Sequence record: OZ035752.1
DNA from: Kagunavirus LF7074P1
Direction: 5' to 3' (one strand)
DNA: 41,072 nucleotides
The notes below the pieces were generated by a model. That model was not told the DNA's origin, searched no databases, and saw only the letters and a list, made by a program, of their open reading frames with translations. Numbering within the stretch: position 1 is the first letter of the stretch; each line of letters begins with the position of its first letter. Both the position numbers and the translations under genes were made by a program. Positions 2,822-13,950 of this stretch are shown here, piece after piece.

Positions 2822-3898
2822 ATGCTATTAACTTTAGCGCCACAGGGTTTATCTATGAGCTTACTTACATCACTAATCAGCCACCAGATATGGCTGCAAC
2901 GAACCGCATCCGGTGAGGTGAAAGACCTCGCGCCGTTCATTAAGGAGATGCGGGACGAAATCAAACGGCAGGTGCTGCTATTCGGCGACGGCGGTCGCAG
3001 CACTGCGCGACTGAATAAACTGTTACGTGACCTTGAAGAAGCACTGACAGGACTTACTGGTGACTGGCAAACAAAGCTGGCAGAAGACCTCAAGGAACTG
3101 GCGGTGTATGAAGCTGAGTGGAACGTAAAGACCCTGACCGCCAACGTAGATGCGGAATTTGTTACGCCCACCGCCGAACAGGTGTGGGCCGCTGCTGAGT
3201 TTCAGCCATTATCATTGAGTGGCAAGCCAGTTGATTTCACTAAACTGATGTCAGGTTGGGGTGAAACGGAAGTAGCACGTCTTGTAACCGGCGTTAAGAT
3301 GGGCTTTGTACAAGGTCAAACAACACGGCAGATTGTTAAGAATGTAGTAGGCGCCGGTGGGCTGGCTGACATCTCTGAGCGTAACGCCGCTACCGTCATC
3401 CGCACCGCGCTGTCTCACGTGTCCAACGAAGCCCGTAACGAGACGTACCGCCAGAACGACGACATCATCGAGAAGTACGAGTGGGTGTCAACGCTGGACA
3501 GCCGTACCAGTACGATTTGCAGAGCCAGAGACGGAATGACGTGGGAAATTGGTAAAGGGCCGATGCCCCCTGCCCATCCGAACTGCCGGTCGTGCACGGC
3601 TCCGGTAATCAGTTCCGAGTTCGACTTCCTCGATAAAGGCGCAAAACGCGCGGCTAAGGGCGCCGAAGGCGGTACTCAGGTAAGTGCGGACACCACCTAT
3701 TACGAGTTCCTGAAACAACAACCGGCATGGTTTCAGGACCAGGCGCTCGGCCCTGTTCGCGGTAAGATTTTCCGTAACAGCGGTATATCGCCGGAAGAGT
3801 TTCGCGTAATATCTGTAGATGGTTTCGGGAACCCGCTGACGCTTAAGCAGATGGCGGAACTCGATAAACGTGTTGCTGATTATCTGAAAGGGGAATAA
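2822..3898 (+). CDS. minor head / head morphogenesis protein (putative)
   Basis: 358-aa ORF directly after portal (position of Mu F / SPP1 gp7-type genes); in-frame alternative ATG at 2855; stop overlaps next start (TAATG). Confidence 0.5.
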   Translation: MLLTLAPQGLSMSLLTSLISHQIWLQRTASGEVKDLAPFIKEMRDEIKRQVLLFGDGGRSTARLNKLLRDLEEALTGLTGDWQTKLAEDLKELAVYEAEWNVKTLTANVDAEFVTPTAEQVWAAAEFQPLSLSGKPVDFTKLMSGWGETEVARLVTGVKMGFVQGQTTRQIVKNVVGAGGLADISERNAATVIRTALSHVSNEARNETYRQNDDIIEKYEWVSTLDSRTSTICRARDGMTWEIGKGPMPPAHPNCRSCTAPVISSEFDFLDKGAKRAAKGAEGGTQVSADTTYYEFLKQQPAWFQDQALGPVRGKIFRNSGISPEEFRVISVDGFGNPLTLKQMAELDKRVADYLKGE

Positions 3899-4359
3899 TG
3901 ATGGGCTTTTTCAAAGTAACTGACGTACCGTCTCGTCGCGTAGTCCAGTACGCCCGCGTGTCTGGCTCTGGCGAGAACGTGGTGTTTATTGAAGACGAAA
4001 GTGTACTCGGAACACCAGTGGACGATATGCCGTTTGCGGACAAGACCGGTATTGCGCTGCCAGCGGCAGGTATGCTTTATGAGATTCAGTACCTGGCGGA
4101 TGCTGGTGATGTGTATTTCTCCGTACAACCGCAGGACGCTGAACTGGCAGACGGCAGCGCAAATATCGCTGTCGAAGTTAAGGCGGGCAAAGCACCATAT
4201 GCGCTGACCTGGTACAAAGACGGGAAGGAAGTGGTAAACGCCCCGGAAGAGGCTCTGTCTCTGACGGTTAACGCAGTTGGTGAATACTTCGTTAAAGTCA
4301 CTGATGCCGATGGTATAGAGGCCGTAAGTAAAGCAGCGAAGGTTACTAAGCCAGAATAA
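3898..4359 (+). CDS. hypothetical virion-associated protein
   Basis: 153-aa ORF, RBS GGGGA, start overlaps upstream stop; C-terminal beta-rich segment (YALTWYKDGKEVV..GEYFVKVTDADG) resembles Ig-like domains; strong terminator follows. Confidence 0.5.
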   Translation: MMGFFKVTDVPSRRVVQYARVSGSGENVVFIEDESVLGTPVDDMPFADKTGIALPAAGMLYEIQYLADAGDVYFSVQPQDAELADGSANIAVEVKAGKAPYALTWYKDGKEVVNAPEEALSLTVNAVGEYFVKVTDADGIEAVSKAAKVTKPE

Positions 4360-4363
4360 ACTG

Positions 4364-4384
4364 AAGCCCCGAAAGGGGCTTTTT
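4364..4384 (+). terminator. intrinsic terminator
   Basis: AAGCCCC-GAAA-GGGGCTT stem-loop followed by TTTT. Confidence 0.7.
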
Positions 4385-4423
4385 AGTGCCTGTGATTATT
4401 CCAGTTATTCCACTCAATTGTAA

Positions 4424-4477
4424 ATGTTGGAATAAACTATTCGAATAGTTGACTTTTCACCAAAAATGTGCTAAGCT
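4424..4477 (+). promoter_or_regulatory. promoter-like element with upstream palindromic site
   Basis: half-sites GAATAA (4430-4435), CTATTC (4437-4442), GAATAG (4443-4448) including perfect palindrome AACTATTCGAATAGTT (4435-4450) abutting -35 TTGACT (4449-4454); 17-bp spacer; TGc-TAAGCT extended -10-like (4469-4477). Confidence 0.4.
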
Positions 4478-4657
4478 CCACCTGAGCTTGTGAAGTATGA
4501 ACAAGCGACCGCGGCGCGGGCAGGTAACGGAGCGGGACGTAAGTCCTGAGTGTAGTTACGCTGACGCGTTCGGAAGGGCCATACTCTATTGCTTGTGTAA
4601 AAAGTAACTGGTTTACTGAGATTACGCCGTTTCTATGTTTAAATGATAAGGACTAGC

Positions 4658-5276: not shown

Positions 5277-5903
5277 ATGAGCGAAGAAGTGAAAGACGAA
5301 ACTATCGAACAACAAGAGACTAAGACCACGTTTACCAAAGAAGAAGTTGACGCGCTGGTATCCGGTCTTAAAGCTAACAACGAGAAACTCTTGTCTGAAA
5401 AGAAAGCTGCCGCCGCTGCCGCGAAAGAAGCCGCAGATGCGAAGCTGAAAGCCGAACAGGAACGCGCAAAACAGAACGGCGAACTTGAGGCATTCGAGAA
5501 AACGTTGCGCAGTCAGTATGAGCCAGTACTCGCCGAGAAAGACGGTAAGATTAGCAAAATGGCTGAGCGTATCCTCGGCGCAGAACGTAAATCAGTTATC
5601 AGCCAGTTGTCTGGCATGTTGATTGATGCGAGCGCAGCGGATATTATCGCTATGATGGTCAAGACCGAATTTGACGGCGATGACGTTGTGACCAAGTTCA
5701 CAGGTGCAGATGGTAATGTCATCACCACCGACGCAGAGCAATTTAAAAAGTATCTGCGTGAGCACAAAGCATTTTCGCATCTGATTAAAGCAGATGCAGC
5801 AACCGGCGGCGGGGCTTCCGGTAACAAAAATTCTACTGGCGGGGCCGGTGGTGCGGACGTAATCCAGCAAAAACTTAACGCCAAATACGGCAAACGAGGA
5901 TAA
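5277..5903 (+). CDS. scaffolding protein (putative)
   Basis: 208 aa from ATG 5277 (RBS GGGGA); Ala/Lys/Glu-rich coiled-coil-like sequence; immediately upstream of capsid gene; ORF-track start 5226 is a TTG without RBS. Confidence 0.55.
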   Translation: MSEEVKDETIEQQETKTTFTKEEVDALVSGLKANNEKLLSEKKAAAAAAKEAADAKLKAEQERAKQNGELEAFEKTLRSQYEPVLAEKDGKISKMAERILGAERKSVISQLSGMLIDASAADIIAMMVKTEFDGDDVVTKFTGADGNVITTDAEQFKKYLREHKAFSHLIKADAATGGGASGNKNSTGGAGGADVIQQKLNAKYGKRG

Positions 5904-5909
5904 CAGAAT

Positions 5910-6878
5910 ATGTCTCTGTCAGATATGAAGGTTTATAACGACGATATCGTCGGTACCACTATCGAACTGCTTGGCCAGAAAACTGACCAGTTTAACGCAG
6001 CCTCCGGTGGCGCAATTGTACTGTCTACCGCTTCATGGCGCGGTGACTTCTCCCGTGAGTCTTTCTTTAACCAGATTGCCTCCGCTAAACGCCGCGTTGA
6101 CCGTTACGCCGATATCGCGTCTCAGGCAGCTACCGCGCTGACTCAGGGCGAGCATGTAGGCGTTAAAGTCGCTGGCGGCTTCGGACCGGTACTGTTCGAG
6201 CCTGCGCAAATGACCTGGCTGAACGAAGACCCGGCGAGCGCGATTCGTGCTATCTCCGAAGGGTTCTCTGACGCACTGTTAGCTGACCAGCTTAACACCG
6301 CTGTTGGTGCCGCCGTTGCCGCGGTATCAGGTCAGACTGCACTGGTTAACGATGTATCCGCGACCGCTGGCTTGACCCTGAACGTGCTGAACAACAGCCA
6401 CGCTAAATTCGGCGACCAGTCTCAGTTGTTGGTCACTGACATCATGACCGGCGCGGCCTACCACACTCTGGTGGACAAAGCGCTGACCAACGCAAACCAG
6501 TTGTTCGTTGCTGGCAACGTTATGGTTGTCGATGTTCTCGGCAAGCGTTACGTAATCTCTGACATTCCTGCGCTGTACGAGGCCGGTACTCCGAACAAGA
6601 CTAAGGTCCTGTCCGTAGTTGCAAACGGCATCATCGTTGATAATGCTTCTGACATTATCAGCAACATTGACACCAGCAACGGTAACACCCGCATCCAGAC
6701 CACCTGGCAGGCGGACTACAGCTTCGGCCTGAAACTGAAAGGCTACAGCTGGGACGTTACCAACGGCGGTAAATCTCCGCTGGACGCAGAACTGTTCACC
6801 GCGACTAACTGGGTCAAAGCTGTTGCCGAGAACAAGCACACCCTCGGTACTCTGGCAATCGCCGACGCGGACAAGTGA
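5910..6878 (+). CDS. major capsid protein (putative)
   Basis: 322-aa ORF after scaffold-like gene and followed by strong terminator; assignment by position only. Confidence 0.6.
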   Translation: MSLSDMKVYNDDIVGTTIELLGQKTDQFNAASGGAIVLSTASWRGDFSRESFFNQIASAKRRVDRYADIASQAATALTQGEHVGVKVAGGFGPVLFEPAQMTWLNEDPASAIRAISEGFSDALLADQLNTAVGAAVAAVSGQTALVNDVSATAGLTLNVLNNSHAKFGDQSQLLVTDIMTGAAYHTLVDKALTNANQLFVAGNVMVVDVLGKRYVISDIPALYEAGTPNKTKVLSVVANGIIVDNASDIISNIDTSNGNTRIQTTWQADYSFGLKLKGYSWDVTNGGKSPLDAELFTATNWVKAVAENKHTLGTLAIADADK

Positions 6879-7621: not shown

Positions 7622-8236
7622 ATGGCGAAGACTAAATCAGAGATGTTCACCCTTATCGGTGCGAACCTCCCCGATAACACCACCGGACTTATTACCCCGG
7701 CAGCATTGCGCGAGGTAATGACGCAGATGGCGGACTCGCCTATTTACGCCACTCCTGGTGTTAAAGAGGTTGAAGTTCTCCGCGCCGCGTCGACAGTAAC
7801 ACAAGCGCCTGCCGCAGTAGCTACGGCATTGCAGGTATCGTTCGGCTCTGCCCAGGGAAGCGCATCTGACCCGGTAATGATTAATGCTGCGGGGCTGGTT
7901 ACGTTCAACACAGCGGGTAACTACGCCGTTCGCATCAAGTTACAGGCGGGCCGTACAGGGGCCAGCGGTACATCTATCCTGCTATCGCGCATCCTCGTCA
8001 ACGGTGCTCAGTACGGCTCACCCGCCGCCACGAAACTGGTAAGCGCCGACGTAACAATACCGATTGAGTCCCGCGTCGTTATTAACCCCACCGCAGGCCA
8101 GACGTTTGCCGTTCAGATTATGCGAGATAGCGCCGGAAGCAGCTACGGCGGCGTGTACCCACAAGCCGCTACCGTAACCGCATGGGGCACAGCACCGTCC
8201 GCGCTACTGGTTATTTCGAGACTGGAGGCAGCGTAA
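7622..8236 (+). CDS. hypothetical structural protein
   Basis: 204-aa ORF tightly packed in head-tail joining region. Confidence 0.5.
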   Translation: MAKTKSEMFTLIGANLPDNTTGLITPAALREVMTQMADSPIYATPGVKEVEVLRAASTVTQAPAAVATALQVSFGSAQGSASDPVMINAAGLVTFNTAGNYAVRIKLQAGRTGASGTSILLSRILVNGAQYGSPAATKLVSADVTIPIESRVVINPTAGQTFAVQIMRDSAGSSYGGVYPQAATVTAWGTAPSALLVISRLEAA

Positions 8237-8595
8237 TGAGCACCGCTTTCAGTAAACGTATGCAAGGCGTGGGTACGCGCCTGCTAACCAAATTCGGTAG
8301 CACGGTATCTCTGATTCGCGCTGGTTCAAAAGTATGGGATGAAGTTCTCGGTGAGTACGTCTGGTCTGCGGATGAAGTGTTGCCGTTGAAGGCCGTTCCG
8401 GTTCCGGTAAACGCGGGACTGGTAAACGGTACGACGATTCAGGCTGGCGACATGATTGTTAAAGCCGATTACAGCGTCGTTCCGAAGATGGAAGACAAGG
8501 TGCAATTCGGCGGCGAGCAATGGTCCATCGTAGCTATTGAGAAGAAGATGGTTAACGATGACGTCGTGGCGTACTTTATTCAGGTGAGAAAATGA
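8236..8595 (+). CDS. hypothetical structural protein
   Basis: 119 aa from ATG 8236 overlapping upstream stop (TAATG); ORF-track start 8182 lies inside previous gene. Confidence 0.5.
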   Translation: MSTAFSKRMQGVGTRLLTKFGSTVSLIRAGSKVWDEVLGEYVWSADEVLPLKAVPVPVNAGLVNGTTIQAGDMIVKADYSVVPKMEDKVQFGGEQWSIVAIEKKMVNDDVVAYFIQVRK

Positions 8596-8987
8596 GTTTC
8601 GCGCTCGATGTCTCTAAGTTCGTGGAAAAGGCGAAGAAGAACCCTGAGAAGGTGATGCGTCAGGTGTCTATCAAGCTGTTTTCCGCTATTATAAAGGCGA
8701 GTCCGGTAGACACGGGCCGCTTTCGTATGAACTGGATGGCATCTGGCGGTACTCCTGCTTCCGGGATTACGGACGCTACGGATAAATCAGGAAACACAGC
8801 AACCGGAAACGCTACGAGTTTCGTGCTGAAAGCCGCTGACTGGCATGAGTTCACGCTGACAAATAATCTGCCGTATGCGCAACGGCTGGAGTATGGTTGG
8901 TCGCAACAGGCGCCAGCCGGGGTTGTCAGGACTAATGTGTCTCGCTTCCAGCAACTCATTAACGAAGAAGCCAACAAGGTGAAATGA
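8592..8987 (+). CDS. tail-completion-type protein (HK97 gp10-like, putative)
   Basis: 131 aa; ATGA overlap with upstream gene; motif SPVDTGRFR recalled from HK97 gp10-family proteins (memory only). Confidence 0.45.
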   Translation: MSFALDVSKFVEKAKKNPEKVMRQVSIKLFSAIIKASPVDTGRFRMNWMASGGTPASGITDATDKSGNTATGNATSFVLKAADWHEFTLTNNLPYAQRLEYGWSQQAPAGVVRTNVSRFQQLINEEANKVK

Positions 8988-10573: not shown

Positions 10574-10600
10574 AAGGCCCCGTTTGGGGCCTTTTTTTTT
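10574..10600. terminator. bidirectional intrinsic terminator
   Basis: AAGGCCCC-GTTT-GGGGCCTT stem-loop followed by T9; between convergent genes; exact reverse-complement copy at 23108-23127. Confidence 0.8.
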
Positions 10601-11153
10601 ACAAACCTAATCTTAAAGCAATGCCTATAGCGTTCGATTTAACGTAACCCGGTATGATGTAGGTGTCATAATCTTTTACACCATCAATATCGTACAGGTA
10701 ACCGCGGCTGTCCCCTTCAAACGTATGGCCGTCTCTGTGCAAGCGGACGATTCTCACATCATGCCCCGCGGCAACGATAGGGGCTACTTCGCTGGCGAAC
10801 CCGCCATCAGACACCACAAAAACTTCGTCGCCGTCGGGCAAGTTTCCGGCAAGATACTTACCGAAATAATCATCACCGAATACCGGTTTAATGAATTGCT
10901 CGGAAATGGCAATCATGAACTGACGCCGAGACAACCCGTTAAGGAAACCCTCTGGCTTTTCTTTCCGAGCCCGGTCGTCGTAGCCGTCGAGAAACTCGCG
11001 GTAAGCATCCTGGCCTAACGCAGCCATAGCAATATTGAACATCGGATTCTTGAAACTGGCGACACCCTTCGCAAAGCCCATTTCTACCAGCGCCCTAGCA
11101 AGTGTGTCTTTCCCGCAGCCCGCAGGACCATTAAGAATAATTACCTTAGCCAT
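10599..11153 (-). CDS. P-loop kinase (dNMP kinase-like)
   Basis: 184 aa; Walker A GPAGCGKDT at residues 8-16, resembling T4 dNMP kinase GxxxSGKDT; start overlaps upstream stop (TAATG). Confidence 0.65.
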   Translation of the reverse strand: MAKVIILNGPAGCGKDTLARALVEMGFAKGVASFKNPMFNIAMAALGQDAYREFLDGYDDRARKEKPEGFLNGLSRRQFMIAISEQFIKPVFGDDYFGKYLAGNLPDGDEVFVVSDGGFASEVAPIVAAGHDVRIVRLHRDGHTFEGDSRGYLYDIDGVKDYDTYIIPGYVKSNAIGIALRLGL

Positions 11154-11638
11154 TATTTATCACTCCCATGTGGTTTTAAGTGTGTAGAGTTCCCGTTACA
11201 GTCGTATTCAGTAACTGCGTGAGTGGTTATGCCGAGTTCGCGGAAATGCTTTATTACCGCTGGAGAGTCGTCGAATGCACACAAGATTCTCTCCGGCCCA
11301 ATAGCACGCAACACCTCTTCTTTAATTACGATGTCTTTTCTGTTGTCGTGTTTGCTGCGCATGATTAACTGATAAAATTCGACGCGGTGGCGCTGCAACC
11401 ACATTCTGGTTTCTTTTTCCGCGTCATCACTACGGCCTGTTAAGATAATAACGGCATAGCGACGATTAAGGGCGTTACACAGTTCGATGTTATCTTTAAT
11501 GGGTGCATCGTCTTTGCACGCCATGTTAAATGGTTTCCACGCCCAGGTTTCGCCGTAGTTATCTTTCGGCAGCAGGTGTAAACGATGAGCACCATCTGCC
11601 AATGTCCCGTCTAAATCGAAAATCACAATATCTTTCAT
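11153..11638 (-). CDS. HAD-superfamily phosphatase
   Basis: 161 aa; N-terminal motif I FDLDGTLAD (DxDxT); ATGA overlap with upstream gene. Confidence 0.65.
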   Translation of the reverse strand: MKDIVIFDLDGTLADGAHRLHLLPKDNYGETWAWKPFNMACKDDAPIKDNIELCNALNRRYAVIILTGRSDDAEKETRMWLQRHRVEFYQLIMRSKHDNRKDIVIKEEVLRAIGPERILCAFDDSPAVIKHFRELGITTHAVTEYDCNGNSTHLKPHGSDK

Positions 11639-12771
11639 CCAAGCATCTCCGGTGAAATAGTTAAACGTGCGACCTCGCCATATTCGGCGCTATAAGTAAT
11701 TACGTTTGCACTGCGGCCCGACATCCACCCACCGCGGGAGGCATATGCATCTTTAGCCGCGAGAGTGCGGTGTTGCTCAACAATCATGTTACGGCTTTCT
11801 ACAATCTTTTGGTGGTGCAGGTGACCCACGTGGGCGTAGCTGTAAACACTCTCTCCGAACGCTTTGCGGAACTTGGCGATCATAACCGGTTCGATAGCGT
11901 CGAATCGTGCTTTATGCCCATGATGGAAGAACAGCGTCGTTTTGCCGTGTTGCACCATCTTGTAAACATCCGGCGACGTATCGACGAACACACGCGGCTC
12001 ATTGTCGTACAGCGTACTAAACATCTCAGCTAACCAAATCATTCCGCTTTCGTCGTGGTTACCTTGCACGATAAGCAAGCGAACATTTTTATGTTTAACG
12101 AGAGCCATATCAATGACACGGCGGACCATACGAATCATGTAGCGTACAAGTTTCTGATAGCGGGTGTCAGCGTCAAGAACATGGCCACTTGCGGGTGTAA
12201 CGGCATCCAGACTATCGAAGTGCGCGAAGTCACCTAGCAGGTTAATAACTCCTGTTCCCGCATCTGGCGCTTTCTGAAACGCTGCGTCGAACCATCGAGA
12301 GAACAGGTCTTCTGCGATTTTCATATCCCAGTCGTCGCCGCTCTCGTCGGCCCATGCCAGCATACCGAGATGAAAATCAGATACAGTGTAAAGATTGAGT
12401 AGCTTGTCGTCACGTTTGGTGCGCACGGCTTTAACCGGCGCAACGGGGGTAATCTCTGACTTCATGCCCTCAATTACGGCTTTCATAGCCTCTAACTGTT
12501 TCTCTTTATCCGGCTCGGAAATCACCCACGTCATCACCTCTTCGCCATTAGCCTTTACGCAAGCGGATATTCTTTTAGCAGAGAACCCTTCCGCTATGCG
12601 TTTGGATATTACTGGGTCGTTCCCGTGACCTATGCCCTTCTTGGCTAATCGTGCTTTACGGATACGAATTACGCGGTCTGAGATGCCGTATTTACGGGCG
12701 ATGTCTATATTCCTCATCCCGGCGCTCAATTCTTCCTGTAACTGTTCGTCGGTTATTTTCTTCTGGGCCAT
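11635..12771 (-). CDS. HTH-fused calcineurin-like metallophosphoesterase (SbcD/Mre11-like motifs)
   Basis: 378 aa from ATG 12771 (RBS GAGGAAG); N-terminal HTH (NIDIARKYGISDRVIRIRKARL); motifs SDFHLG, LLGDFAHFD, QGNHDE, HHGH, GHLHH; ORF-track start 12876 would overlap the imm-like gene. Confidence 0.65.
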   Translation of the reverse strand: MAQKKITDEQLQEELSAGMRNIDIARKYGISDRVIRIRKARLAKKGIGHGNDPVISKRIAEGFSAKRISACVKANGEEVMTWVISEPDKEKQLEAMKAVIEGMKSEITPVAPVKAVRTKRDDKLLNLYTVSDFHLGMLAWADESGDDWDMKIAEDLFSRWFDAAFQKAPDAGTGVINLLGDFAHFDSLDAVTPASGHVLDADTRYQKLVRYMIRMVRRVIDMALVKHKNVRLLIVQGNHDESGMIWLAEMFSTLYDNEPRVFVDTSPDVYKMVQHGKTTLFFHHGHKARFDAIEPVMIAKFRKAFGESVYSYAHVGHLHHQKIVESRNMIVEQHRTLAAKDAYASRGGWMSGRSANVITYSAEYGEVARLTISPEMLG

Positions 12772-12809
12772 GCTTACTTCCTCGTGTTTAGGATTTGTCC
12801 TATAGTAGC

Positions 12810-13016
12810 CTACTTCTCTTTCACGTTCGAGTTGCAAGCCCAGATTAAAATAAAGACCCACGGCAGCAGAACCCAACCAAGAAACAGATTAGCCATGAAT
12901 ATCGCTAACTTCGCTTTATGGTTACGGAAGTACGCAACCAGGAAAGGCGCGAAATAAGCGAGCAGTGCAAACAGAATTAAGGAAACTGGTAAACTGGACA
13001 TTTTAAACCCCTTCAT
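12810..13016 (-). CDS. superinfection-immunity-like small membrane protein
   Basis: 68 aa; two hydrophobic helices; YFAPFLVAYFRNHKAKLAIFMANLFLGWVLLPWVFILIWA resembles Imm_superinfect-type proteins (memory only); first gene after promoter. Confidence 0.55.
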   Translation of the reverse strand: MKGFKMSSLPVSLILFALLAYFAPFLVAYFRNHKAKLAIFMANLFLGWVLLPWVFILIWACNSNVKEK

Positions 13017-13031
13017 TGTTGGTGTAAGTGA

Positions 13032-13060
13032 ATAGTACCCTATTATATTGGGGTGTGCAA
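13032..13060 (-). promoter_or_regulatory. sigma70-like promoter with palindromic operator
   Basis: minus-strand TTGCAC-17 bp-TACTAT; operator AATAG-N4-CTATT at 13031-13044; near-identical to plus-strand promoter at 35040-35068. Confidence 0.55.
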
Positions 13061-13168
13061 GTAATGTGATAGAATAAGTTTGCGCCTAGTGTCGCACACG
13101 AAAAGCGGGTGGTTCCCGTCTGGCGCATTTATCGTTAACCTGTAACCTCTTAACCAAAGGATTAAAGA

Positions 13169-13585
13169 ATGAAACTTTCTGATTTTTATTTCGAAGAGAA
13201 AGCACTGGTAGGCAAGAAGATGCCCATTCTGCTGCCAAACGGCGAAGACTCCGGTGAATGGCTTAACGTTGTAAGTCCCGATGCGGATGTCGCCGTTAAA
13301 GCGGGGCGTGCTTTCATTATTGCGTACCGTCGCGGGTTGGCGCGTTTCGAAGAACTGGAAAAAGCCGCCAAAGAATCCGGCGACTATACTGAATATAACC
13401 TGGCTATTAACGAACTGGCGGAAGACCTCAACCGGCAACTCGCGGCAGAAGTCGTAAACGGCTGGAGCTTTGATGAGCCTTTCTCTAAAGAAGCATTTAA
13501 CAAATTGCTGGACCAGTTCAAGGCATTAGGCACACAGGTAGCAGCGTTCCATAACGCTGAGCGCAAAGCATTACAGGAAAAGTAG
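13169..13585 (+). CDS. tail assembly chaperone (G-like)
   Basis: 138-aa acidic protein upstream of tape measure; RBS AAGGA; slippery run near its 3' end. Confidence 0.6.
   Translation: MKLSDFYFEEKALVGKKMPILLPNGEDSGEWLNVVSPDADVAVKAGRAFIIAYRRGLARFEELEKAAKESGDYTEYNLAINELAEDLNRQLAAEVVNGWSFDEPFSKEAFNKLLDQFKALGTQVAAFHNAERKALQEK
13575..13582 (+). other. putative -1 programmed frameshift site
   Basis: AGGAAAAG run (zero-frame GAA AAG) one codon before the G-like stop. Confidence 0.4.
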
Positions 13586-13950
13586 ACGCGCTGTACAGGT
13601 TCGCCACCTATGAGTTTGTGGATAAGCATAAAATCAGAGAGTTTGATTCTATAGCCGACGGACACGAACAGGCGCTTATCGCGATGGGTGTAATCGATAA
13701 GAAAAAACGTGCAGCGCGACGGGGTGGGCCAGAATGCCCGCCCCTTTTTATATCCACCTTCGAGACGTACTGCGACATTAAGTTTACGCGACACGTGCGC
13801 GAGGACGCTGTAGTATTGTTCGCAAGAGAATCCGTTACGTGGCAAGACCTGAAAGCCTATCTCGATGTTACGCAAAAACAGCTTAGCCTGTTCGAGATAG
13901 ACATTATCATGGGCTTAGAAGCAATCTTTGAAGGTAGAAATCATGGCTGA
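13576..13950 (+). CDS. tail assembly chaperone GT extension (via -1 frameshift)
   Basis: -1 frame open from the end of the G-like gene to 13950, ending inside the tape-measure start; typical G/GT layout; ORF track lists this frame from GTG 13618. Confidence 0.45.
   Translation, partial: GKVDALYRFATYEFVDKHKIREFDSIADGHEQALIAMGVIDKKKRAARRGGPECPPLFISTFETYCDIKFTRHVREDAVVLFARESVTWQDLKAYLDVTQKQLSLFEIDIIMGLEAIFEGRNHG

What the first reader, a model, noticed from the sequence alone, without database searches (positions are those of the whole stretch)
10574..13060. Opposite-strand accessory operon inside the tail module: Imm-like protein, HTH-metallophosphoesterase, HAD phosphatase, P-loop kinase
Four tightly coupled minus-strand genes (12810-13016, 11635-12771, 11153-11638, 10599-11153) interrupt an otherwise plus-strand structural module, between the putative major tail gene and the G/GT chaperones. 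They have their own operator-bearing promoter (13032-13060) and end at a bidirectional terminator. A P-loop kinase beside a DxDxT HAD phosphatase, plus an Mre11/SbcD-like metallophosphoesterase fused to an HTH, is the domain inventory of nucleic-acid end-healing enzymes (T4 Pnkp is kinase plus HAD phosphatase; bacterial Pnkp uses a calcineurin-like phosphoesterase), here split into separate genes with no ligase visible. Alternative reading: T5-like host-DNA degradation and dNMP salvage. Either would be a host-takeover or anti-defence cassette co-transcribed with a superinfection-exclusion-type membrane protein.
Basis: partly seen in the sequence, partly recalled or inferred. Interest (0 to 1): 0.8.

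Follow-up and report, generated by a model that had tools for sequence, protein, structure and literature searches.

The report
Leftward nuclease and nucleotide-enzyme operon in tail module
A K1G-like E. coli phage carries, backwards inside its tail genes, a real four-gene operon (membrane 'immunity' protein, DNA-binding nuclease-like phosphoesterase, phosphatase, dNMP kinase) that most likely turns over DNA and manages nucleotide pools rather than repairing broken RNA or DNA ends; the genes are already annotated in relatives but have never been tested.

Summary
Four translationally coupled minus-strand genes lie between the tail-tube and tail-chaperone genes of a complete Kagunavirus genome. 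A conserved promoter (13060-13032) and a hairpin terminator (10574-10593) bound them. The domain calls hold: Imm_superinfect protein, HTH-fused metallophosphoesterase with all five motifs, DxDxT HAD phosphatase, P-loop kinase.

The preferred end-healing interpretation is poorly supported. The kinase belongs to the T4 gp1 dNMP-kinase family (same PHROG as T4 gp1, best fold match 1DEK), not to polynucleotide kinases. The genome has no ligase.

The HAD lies between the Pnkp 3'-phosphatase domain and T5 Dmp, a dNMP phosphatase in the same PHROG. The phosphoesterase folds most like the PolD-DP1, Mre11 and SbcD nucleases, the same classes reported for T5 A1, the host-DNA-degrading protein.

The operon is a composite. 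Imm plus phosphoesterase occur at this position in all sampled Guernseyvirinae. HAD plus kinase is a mobile pair present in about 15% of them, and it follows a phosphoesterase again in Webervirus and Ahphunavirus.

Best reading: a T5-like DNA-degradation and nucleotide-pool module, not proven. Modest interest.

Side finding: an int-alpA-type structured RNA leads the downstream tail genes.

The parts
13032..13060 (-). Leftward promoter of the operon: -35 TTGCAC (13060-13055), 17-nt spacer, -10 TACTAT (13037-13032)
   Evidence: Both hexamers are invariant in the alignment of the window, K1G, Bas74 and SETP3. The SETP3 record annotates a promoter at the homologous place. The consensus scan finds an overlapping alternative, ATCACA-N17-TATAAT, at 13070-13042. 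No operator-like inverted repeat was found. No transcription start site has been mapped.
12810..13016 (-). Imm-like small membrane protein (68 aa from 13016; more likely 63 aa from the ATG at 13001), with two hydrophobic helices
   Evidence: PF14373 Imm_superinfect E 9e-13 (48 bits against a cutoff of 27.9) and phrog_1039 E 5e-23. The Shine-Dalgarno AAGGGG lies before the ATG at 13001. Homologues sit at the same position in K1G, Bas74 and SETP3.
11635..12771 (-). HTH-fused metallophosphoesterase (378 aa): N-terminal three-helix HTH (about 8-44), beta-hairpin (63-87), helix (89-106), calcineurin-like core (121-378)
11153..11638 (-). Standalone HAD phosphatase of the Pnkp-phosphatase/Dmp clade (161 aa), start overlapping the phosphoesterase stop (ATGA)
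   Evidence: PF25109 HAD_PNKP E 8e-20 (71.9 bits against 27.6) and phrog_415 E 3e-66. Best solved relatives are Pnkp1 4XRP and T4 Pnkp 1LTQ. hhalign against a T4-type PseT: 97.6%, E 5e-12. T5 Dmp is in the same PHROG. Residues D8, D10, T12, R19, T67, R69, D102, K106, D123 and D124 are present.
10599..11153 (-). T4 gp1-type deoxynucleoside monophosphate kinase homologue (184 aa), P-loop GPAGCGKDT, start overlapping the HAD stop (TAATG)
   Evidence: phrog_139 E 4e-46. T4 gp1 hits the same PHROG over the same profile region, E 2e-65. AlphaFold2 model pLDDT 94. Foldseek top match 1DEK (T4 dNMP kinase), then animal phosphomevalonate kinase. hhalign against T4 gp1 is weak (45%, E 2e-4).
10574..10593 (.). 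Hairpin terminator shared by the convergent tail-tube gene and the leftward operon
   Evidence: 8-bp stem with 6 G-C pairs; T10 follows on the plus strand and AGTTTTAT on the minus strand. The GGCCCC...GGGGCC hairpin is conserved in Bas74 and present twice in SETP3, flanking the Ant gene.

Best explanation
This is an independently transcribed leftward operon, built from two parts and set inside the tail module of a K1G-like Kagunavirus.

Part 1 is conserved in all Guernseyvirinae examined. It consists of an Imm-family two-helix membrane protein, inferred to hinder DNA entry by superinfecting phages, and an HTH-tethered metallophosphoesterase. That enzyme is inferred to be a metal-dependent DNase with an Mre11/PolD-DP1-like fold, playing a role like the T5 A1 protein, which degrades the host chromosome.

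Part 2 is a mobile pair found in about 15% of relatives. It consists of a Pnkp/Dmp-clade HAD phosphatase and a T4 gp1-type dNMP kinase, translationally coupled to the phosphoesterase. These are inferred to sort the mononucleotide products. The kinase would push 5'-dNMPs towards dNDP and dNTP for the phage's own family-A polymerase. The phosphatase would remove phosphates from nucleotides or 3'-phosphorylated products that the kinase cannot use.

Shown here: gene structure, family and fold assignments, intact catalytic motifs, synteny, and the absence of a ligase. Inferred: every enzymatic activity, the substrate (host DNA), and the functional coupling of the three enzymes.
For: Kinase: it shares PHROG 139 with the characterised T4 gp1, and its best fold match is 1DEK.

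HAD: it shares PHROG 415 with the characterised T5 dNMP phosphatase Dmp and with a HAD translationally coupled to nrdB in a T4-like phage that also has a true pseT. It keeps all HAD and Pnkp-phosphatase catalytic residues.

Recurrent gene order: phosphoesterase, HAD, kinase in Webervirus Sin4, and a non-homologous phosphoesterase, HAD, kinase in Ahphunavirus CF7 after an exonuclease and endonuclease VII. Other neighbours are nucleotide enzymes too: phosphoesterase, then a deoxyribosyltransferase-like protein, then a MazG-like protein in a Vibrio phage; and HAD followed by a MazG-like protein in Drulisvirus.

No ligase.
Against: No activity has been measured for any of the four proteins or for any close homologue.

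Homology of the phosphoesterase to T5 A1 is not demonstrable (hhalign 17%, motif III only).

Foldseek does not discriminate nucleases from cyclic-nucleotide phosphodiesterases: Rv0805 is its top hit.

The phosphoesterase stands alone in T1, SETP3 and Bas74. In three distant phages it sits among tail and lysis genes. So its link to nucleotide enzymes is recurrent but not general.

The HAD core is closer to the Pnkp 3'-phosphatase domain (E 5e-12) than to Dmp (E 2.5e-6, N-terminal part only).

A co-expressed dNMP phosphatase and dNMP kinase would work against each other unless their specificities differ.

How the phage's own DNA would escape the nuclease is unexplained.
Confidence: 0.45

Rival explanations
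1. Phage DNA replication/recombination nuclease with unrelated cargo. The HTH-phosphoesterase would be an Mre11-like end-processing or proofreading-type exonuclease that acts on the phage's own DNA (concatemer formation, recombination-dependent replication, repair). The HAD and kinase would be independent nucleotide-metabolism cargo that happen to sit in the same DNA-metabolism neighbourhood.
Against: No Rad50/SbcC-like partner is encoded in the genome. In Guernseyvirinae and several distant phages the gene sits in tail or lysis modules, away from the replication genes. The 4-nt ATGA coupling to the HAD gene, and the same gene order in two other families, suggest more than chance co-location.
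Confidence: 0.2
2. Split nucleic-acid end-healing system. The HAD would remove 3'-phosphates and the kinase would phosphorylate 5'-OH ends of RNA or DNA. Those ends could be made by host defence nucleases or by the phosphoesterase itself, and a host ligase would seal them.
For: The HAD is a Pnkp-clade phosphatase. PF25109 scores E 8e-20, the best solved relatives are Pnkp1 and T4 Pnkp, and hhalign against PseT gives 97.6% over the whole domain with all catalytic residues present. A metallophosphoesterase nuclease, P. putida MPE, is known to leave a mixture of 3'-PO4 and 3'-OH ends (PMC7826289), which would create a need for a 3'-phosphatase.
Confidence: 0.15
3. Superinfection-exclusion pair. 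Imm would block entry of competitor DNA at the membrane, and the DNA-binding phosphoesterase would destroy competitor or non-self DNA that gets in. HAD and kinase would be later add-ons.
For: Imm and the phosphoesterase are the invariant, co-transcribed core at this locus throughout Guernseyvirinae. The locus is a swap hot-spot of moron type, bounded by terminators, as the Ant insertion in SETP3 shows. Distant homologues also sit at the edges of tail modules, where exclusion genes commonly lie.
Against: Outside Guernseyvirinae the phosphoesterase is not linked to an Imm gene. No mechanism for discriminating self from non-self DNA is visible. Imm function is inferred from Pfam membership only.
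Confidence: 0.08
4. Counter-defence phosphodiesterase cassette. The phosphoesterase would hydrolyse cyclic (oligo)nucleotide immune signals. The HAD and kinase would buffer nucleotide pools against nucleotide-depleting defences.
For: The Foldseek top hit is the cyclic-nucleotide phosphodiesterase Rv0805 (E 6e-8). The nucleotide enzymes alongside could offset dNTP depletion.
Confidence: 0.07

Closest known systems
Bacteriophage T5 pre-early operon: A1 (host-DNA degradation) and Dmp (5'-dNMP phosphatase)
   Same: One operon combines a small two-helix membrane protein, a DNA-binding function, a metallophosphatase that resembles the Mre11 and PolD-DP1 nucleases, and a HAD phosphatase. T5 Dmp and the window HAD fall in the same PHROG (415).
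   Different: A1 and the window phosphoesterase are not demonstrably homologous. A2 is a separate protein and is unrelated to the fused HTH. The T5 membrane protein is not Imm-family. Dmp matches the window HAD only over the N-terminal part. T5 excretes the breakdown products, whereas here a dNMP kinase is co-transcribed, which points to reuse.
T4 gp1 deoxynucleoside monophosphate kinase (PDB 1DEK)
   Same: Same PHROG over the same profile region, a GKD-type P-loop, and the best structural match.
   Different: Only about 18% identity. The protein is 184 aa against 241 aa and lacks the gp1 insertions. Substrate range is unknown.
T4 Pnkp (PseT) and Capnocytophaga Pnkp1 3'-phosphatase domains
   Same: HAD_PNKP Pfam family. 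The match covers the whole domain (97.6%, E 5e-12). The equivalents of T4 D165, D167, R176, S211, R213, D254, K258, D277 and D278 are all present.
   Different: It is a standalone protein with no fused polynucleotide-kinase domain. It carries a cap insert of about 14 residues that PseT lacks and T5 Dmp shares. Its neighbours are nucleotide-pool enzymes, not ligases.
Mre11/SbcD and archaeal PolD DP1 nucleases (calcineurin-like phosphoesterase superfamily)
   Different: No Rad50/SbcC or polymerase partner is encoded. The protein has its own N-terminal HTH and beta-hairpin module and a family-specific TPxSGHxLDxDxR loop. Pfam Metallophos scores fall below the gathering cutoff.
The same block as annotated in K1G, fKuEco01, RP180 and other Kagunavirus records
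   Same: Identical gene order at 92-98% DNA identity. Existing labels include 'putative deoxynucleotide kinase', 'polynucleotide kinase/phosphatase', 'metallophosphoesterase similar to PolD small subunit' and 'superinfection immunity protein'.
   Different: Those are annotation labels only. No publication found here analyses or tests the block.

Membership tests
T4 gp1-type dNMP kinase family | Falls in the same profile family as the characterised T4 gp1 | tested here: met
   Window kinase: phrog_139, E 3.8e-46, profile positions 82-241. T4 gp1: phrog_139, E 1.8e-65, profile positions 83-261.
T4 gp1-type dNMP kinase family | Fold most similar to the gp1 structure; GKD-type P-loop | tested here: met
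   Foldseek rank 1 is 1DEK (E 1.9e-5, TM 0.65) with a model of pLDDT 94. The P-loop reads GPAGCGKDT. Direct hhalign against gp1 is weak (45%).
T4 gp1-type dNMP kinase family | Phosphorylates 5'-dNMPs | not testable with these tools
   Needs an enzyme assay.
Polynucleotide 5'-kinase (T4 Pnkp kinase domain) | Sequence or fold relationship of the kinase to Pnkp kinase domains | tested here: not met
   The kinase hits no Pnkp PHROG or Pfam family. No Pnkp chain appears among the top 50 Foldseek matches.
HAD_PNKP / Pnkp 3'-phosphatase clade | Pfam PF25109 above the gathering score, with a DxDxT nucleophile motif | tested here: met
   71.9 bits against a cutoff of 27.6. The motif reads F-D8-L-D10-G-T12.
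HAD_PNKP / Pnkp 3'-phosphatase clade | Residues matching the T4 Pnkp phosphatase active site (D165, D167, R176, S211, R213, D254, K258, D277, D278; that these residues are essential is taken from my own knowledge of the literature) | tested here: met
   D8, D10, R19, T67, R69, D102, K106, D123 and D124 correspond in the alignments to 1LTQ and PseT.
HAD_PNKP / Pnkp 3'-phosphatase clade | Fused to a polynucleotide kinase domain, as in a bifunctional Pnkp | tested here: not met
   The protein is a 161-aa standalone. It belongs to phrog_415 rather than the full-length Pnkp phrog_505, which it matches only at profile positions 162-292.
T5 Dmp-type dNMP phosphatase | Same profile family as T5 Dmp | tested here: met
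   T5 Dmp: phrog_415, E 3.6e-57. Window HAD: phrog_415, E 2.7e-66. The direct relationship covers only the N-terminal part (BLASTP 26.6 bits; hhalign 88.8% over 67 columns).
Calcineurin-like metallophosphoesterase superfamily | Five conserved metal-binding motifs | tested here: met
   D132-x-H134, G180-D181, G237-N-H-D240, H284/H286 and G316-H-x-H319 are invariant or nearly invariant in 63 sequences.
Calcineurin-like metallophosphoesterase superfamily | Pfam Metallophos or Metallophos_2 above the gathering score | tested here: not met
Mre11/SbcD nuclease | Nuclease-type fold as the closest solved structures | tested here: inconclusive
Mre11/SbcD nuclease | Rad50/SbcC ATPase partner encoded alongside | tested here: not met
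   None in the window or in annotated relatives.
Lhr-associated MPE ssDNA endonuclease (P. putida MPE) | Close structural or sequence similarity to 6NVO | tested here: not met
RNA/DNA repair (healing and sealing) system | A ligase (Rnl or DNA ligase) or Hen1 encoded with the healing enzymes | tested here: not met
   No ligase is annotated in the near-identical fKuEco01. Every window ORF of 250 aa or more has another assignment. No ligase lies next to the pair in four other phage families.
Imm_superinfect (T4 Imm-like) | Pfam PF14373 above the gathering score, in a small protein with two hydrophobic helices | tested here: met
   48.3-48.6 bits against a cutoff of 27.9. Two hydrophobic stretches are visible in the sequence.
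Imm_superinfect (T4 Imm-like) | Excludes superinfecting phage DNA | not testable with these tools
   Needs a plating assay on cells that express the protein.
T5 A1 host-DNA-degradation protein | Detectable homology to A1 | tested here: inconclusive
   hhalign 17%, E 1.4e-3, 19 columns around motif III (NHD..S.WL). A1 is in a different PHROG (1745) and has no Pfam hit.
int-alpA RNA (Rfam RF02996), side finding | Score at or above the Rfam gathering threshold | tested here: not met
   31.8 bits against 35.8. The match covers the full model; E is 3.7e-5 in a 201-nt search and 7.5e-3 genome-wide.
int-alpA RNA (Rfam RF02996), side finding | Conserved secondary structure supported by covariation | tested here: met
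   RNAalifold on 10 representatives recovers the outer stem and two hairpins. 9 of 16 pairs carry compensatory double changes. Hairpin 2 was fixed by the search pattern and is uninformative.

The most novel reading that the evidence does not exclude
The HTH-metallophosphoesterase family (phrog_704), present in about 4% of sequenced phage genomes, would be the so far unidentified host-chromosome DNase of T1-like, Jersey-like and related siphophages, a functional analogue of T5 A1. Together with the Pnkp/Dmp-type HAD and the gp1-type kinase it would form a portable three-gene 'degrade, dephosphorylate, rephosphorylate' cassette. That cassette would move between phage families and edit the dNMP pool through complementary substrate specificities.
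Probability: 0.25. Interest if true: 0.55.

Novelty: new member of a known kind. Interest (0 to 1): 0.33.

Why it matters
If the reading is right, a widespread and uncharacterised phage protein family gets a testable role. That family carries labels as varied as 'DNA repair exonuclease', 'DNA polymerase II small subunit' and 'transcriptional regulator'. The proposed role is host-DNA breakdown, and it links to the current work on T5 A1.

The analysis also corrects a common misannotation. The standalone HAD genes labelled '3'-phosphatase, 5'-polynucleotide kinase' have no kinase domain and share a family with the T5 dNMP phosphatase.

Natural variants with and without the HAD-kinase pair exist (the K1G clade against Bas74). 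They offer a ready comparison for testing what the pair contributes.

For the genome at hand, the block is an ordinary, already annotated feature of Kagunavirus phages.

Tried and rejected
- Solved structures by sequence: single-sequence and profile HMMER searches with the kinase and the phosphoesterase gave only generic P-loop or HTH hits.
- NCBIfam gave nothing useful.
- PADLOC defence models gave no hit for any of the four proteins.
- T5 A1 homology: inconclusive.
- T5 A2 against the HTH module: negative.
- T5.005 as an Imm homologue: negative.
- The CF7 phosphoesterase (phrog_221) is not detectably homologous to the window protein, so the shared gene order is analogy, not orthology.
- The 76-aa ORF that replaces HAD plus kinase in Bas74 and SETP3 is not a remnant of the kinase.
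- Operator: no inverted repeat was found.
- Literature searches for Kagunavirus or Drexlerviridae phosphoesterases and for T1 host-DNA degradation found nothing relevant.
- The K1B4 transcriptome paper gives only a coarse class for Imm, 'late' together with the methylase and polymerase, unlike the flanking tail genes.
- I had recalled T5 Dmp as an HD-domain enzyme. The PHROG scan showed it is in the HAD family instead.
- A universal link between the phosphoesterase and nucleotide enzymes was rejected after three further contexts lacked them.


Full report
What the window is. The 41,072-bp window is essentially a complete Kagunavirus genome (Guernseyvirinae, K1G-like siphophage). The region around the finding is 98.5% identical to Kagunavirus LF7074P1 and 92-98% identical to fKuEco01, K1G, K1ind1-3 and RP180. 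In all, 343 phage records match it.

Observation. The four minus-strand ORFs exist at the stated coordinates. They lie between the plus-strand tail-tube gene (PF18906, E 5e-41) and the two tail-chaperone ORFs (PF08748, PF23812), and GC skew changes sign across them. They are tightly coupled. The phosphoesterase stop and the HAD start share ATGA. The HAD stop and the kinase start share TAATG. A GAGGAAG ribosome-binding site precedes the phosphoesterase ATG at 12771. Imm probably starts at 13001, not 13016, because a ribosome-binding site precedes that ATG and K1G annotates 63 aa.

The terminator at 10574-10593 is a strong hairpin followed by T10 on the plus strand and a weaker T-tract on the minus strand. 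It is conserved in Bas74 and SETP3. Both hexamers are invariant in an alignment that reaches SETP3, and that record annotates a promoter at the same place. The claimed operator is not supported.

The kinase. Pfam sees only a P-loop, but PHROG 139 ('deoxynucleoside monophosphate kinase') matches at E 4e-46. I fetched the experimentally characterised T4 gp1, and it falls in the same PHROG over the same profile region (E 2e-65). A confident AlphaFold2 model (pLDDT 94) has T4 dNMP kinase 1DEK as its best solved match, followed by animal phosphomevalonate kinase, which shares the GKD P-loop. No Pnkp kinase appears in the top 50. Direct profile-to-sequence comparison with gp1 is weak (45%). So it is a distant member of the gp1 family and not a polynucleotide kinase.

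The HAD. It scores well above threshold for PF25109 HAD_PNKP. Its best solved relatives are the phosphatase domains of Pnkp1 and T4 Pnkp. It carries the DxDGT motif and counterparts of the T4 Pnkp phosphatase residues. It is nonetheless a standalone protein in PHROG 415, and the characterised T5 deoxynucleoside-5'-monophosphatase Dmp belongs to the same PHROG (E 4e-57). Profile comparison places the core closer to PseT (97.6%, E 5e-12, whole domain) than to Dmp (88.8%, E 2.5e-6, N-terminal 67 columns). The Dmp match includes a cap insert that PseT lacks. Sequence alone therefore does not fix the specificity: 3' or 5', mononucleotide or polynucleotide.

Context favours nucleotides. In a T4-like phage that also has a true pseT, this HAD is translationally coupled to nrdB. 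In Drulisvirus a MazG-like pyrophosphohydrolase follows it. In T1, Webervirus and Ahphunavirus it pairs with the gp1-type kinase.

A 2026 preprint describes T5 A1 as a metallo-phosphatase that resembles the same two nuclease classes. A1 is necessary and sufficient for host-DNA degradation and is encoded in one operon with Dmp. Homology between A1 and the window protein could not be shown.

Synteny. Imm plus phosphoesterase occupy this position, on the opposite strand, in K1G, Bas74 and SETP3. The distal end of the operon varies. It holds HAD plus kinase in the K1G clade: about 52-56 records at 80% identity or more, against 331 or more for the phosphoesterase. It holds a 76-aa ORF in Bas74. In SETP3 it holds that ORF plus an Ant gene between two copies of the terminator. 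The recombination junction lies exactly at the phosphoesterase stop codon.

The order phosphoesterase, HAD, kinase recurs in Webervirus Sin4, in the DNA-metabolism region. Ahphunavirus CF7 has the same order with a non-homologous phosphoesterase, after an exonuclease and endonuclease VII. In a Vibrio phage the phosphoesterase follows SSB and precedes a deoxyribosyltransferase-like and a MazG-like enzyme. In T1, however, it stands alone. In three distant phages it lies among tail and lysis genes, once directly upstream of the tape-measure gene.

Interpretation. The end-healing reading needs a polynucleotide kinase and normally a ligase. The kinase is gp1-type, and no ligase is encoded. The better-supported reading is a DNA-degradation and nucleotide-pool module of the T5 A1/Dmp and T4 gp1 kind, joined to an Imm-type exclusion protein. 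The family and fold assignments are solid. The activities, the substrate and the coupling are inferred. I put the main reading at 0.45. The rivals are a replication/recombination nuclease with unrelated cargo (0.2), end-healing with a host ligase (0.15), an exclusion nuclease (0.08) and a counter-defence phosphodiesterase (0.07).

Novelty. The block is already annotated with equivalent labels in many records, and nothing in it is categorically new. No experimental work on it was found.

Side finding. The 152-bp intergenic region to the right of Imm is conserved far better than the flanking proteins. It contains a full-length, slightly sub-threshold match to the Rfam int-alpA RNA at 13079-13143 (+). 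The invariant core is shared exactly with 68 viral contigs: Guernseyvirinae-sized ones and 11-19-kb elements of the classical int-alpA type. The structure is supported by compensatory changes in 9 of 16 pairs. A conserved extended -10 (TGnTAGAAT, 13067-13075) sits just upstream. So this RNA is probably the 5' leader of the downstream tail genes.

Noticed in passing
window 13079-13143 (+): Full-length match to the Rfam int-alpA RNA (RF02996): 31.8 bits against a gathering score of 35.8, and the only copy in the genome. Its core, CGAAAAGCGGG-loop-CCCGYCTGG, is shared exactly with 68 viral contigs, both Guernseyvirinae-sized ones and 11-19-kb integrative-element-like ones. RNAalifold recovers an outer stem plus two hairpins, with compensatory changes in 9 of 16 pairs. 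The function of int-alpA RNAs is, to my knowledge, unknown. Here the motif would be the 5' leader of the tail chaperone and tape-measure genes of a virulent phage.
   Followed up: partly
window 13067-13075 (+): A conserved extended -10 element, TGnTAGAAT, is present in all Kagunavirus copies, with only the n varying. It ends 4 nt before the int-alpA-like motif and lies back-to-back with the leftward promoter. It suggests a rightward promoter that restarts tail-gene transcription after the terminator at 10574-10593. No -35 of good quality is present, and no transcription start site has been mapped.
   Followed up: partly
L005 (SETP3) about 5568-6261; alignment A5: In SETP3 the Ant/KilAC gene lies between two near-identical copies of the GGCCCC...GGGGCC terminator hairpin. 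That looks like a moron insertion by terminator duplication at the distal end of the same leftward operon.
   Followed up: no
window 11635-12771 (-), residues about 50-100 of the protein: The linker and beta-hairpin segment of the window phosphoesterase matches the Salmonella-phage type (P0061) rather than the K1G/SETP3 type, while the catalytic core matches K1G-type proteins. The gene looks like an intragenic mosaic.
   Followed up: no
PHROG 415, and GenBank annotations of homologues of window 11153-11638: Standalone HAD proteins of about 160 aa are widely annotated as '3'-phosphatase, 5'-polynucleotide kinase' or 'polynucleotide kinase', although they have no kinase domain. The PHROG that carries this label also contains the T5 dNMP phosphatase Dmp.
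   Followed up: yes
L084 4001-5185, L082 4001-5146, L085 4001-5281: Distant homologues of the HTH-phosphoesterase lie on the same strand inside or at the edge of tail and lysis modules in unrelated phage contigs. In L084 the gene is directly upstream of the tape-measure gene. This recurrent placement next to tail genes is unexplained.
   Followed up: no
window 13169-13585 and 13618-13950 (+); also about 8233-8987 (+): Relatives annotate programmed frameshift products for the tail chaperone pair (G/GT type) and also for the tail-completion/neck gene pair upstream (joined CDS in K1G and fKuEco01). I did not examine the slippery sites in the window.
   Followed up: no
L011 (T1) 2949-4535: In T1 an HNH homing-endonuclease gene is inserted exactly between the HAD gene (ST64) and the gp1-type kinase gene (ST62). 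That splits a pair which is translationally coupled in other phages.
   Followed up: no
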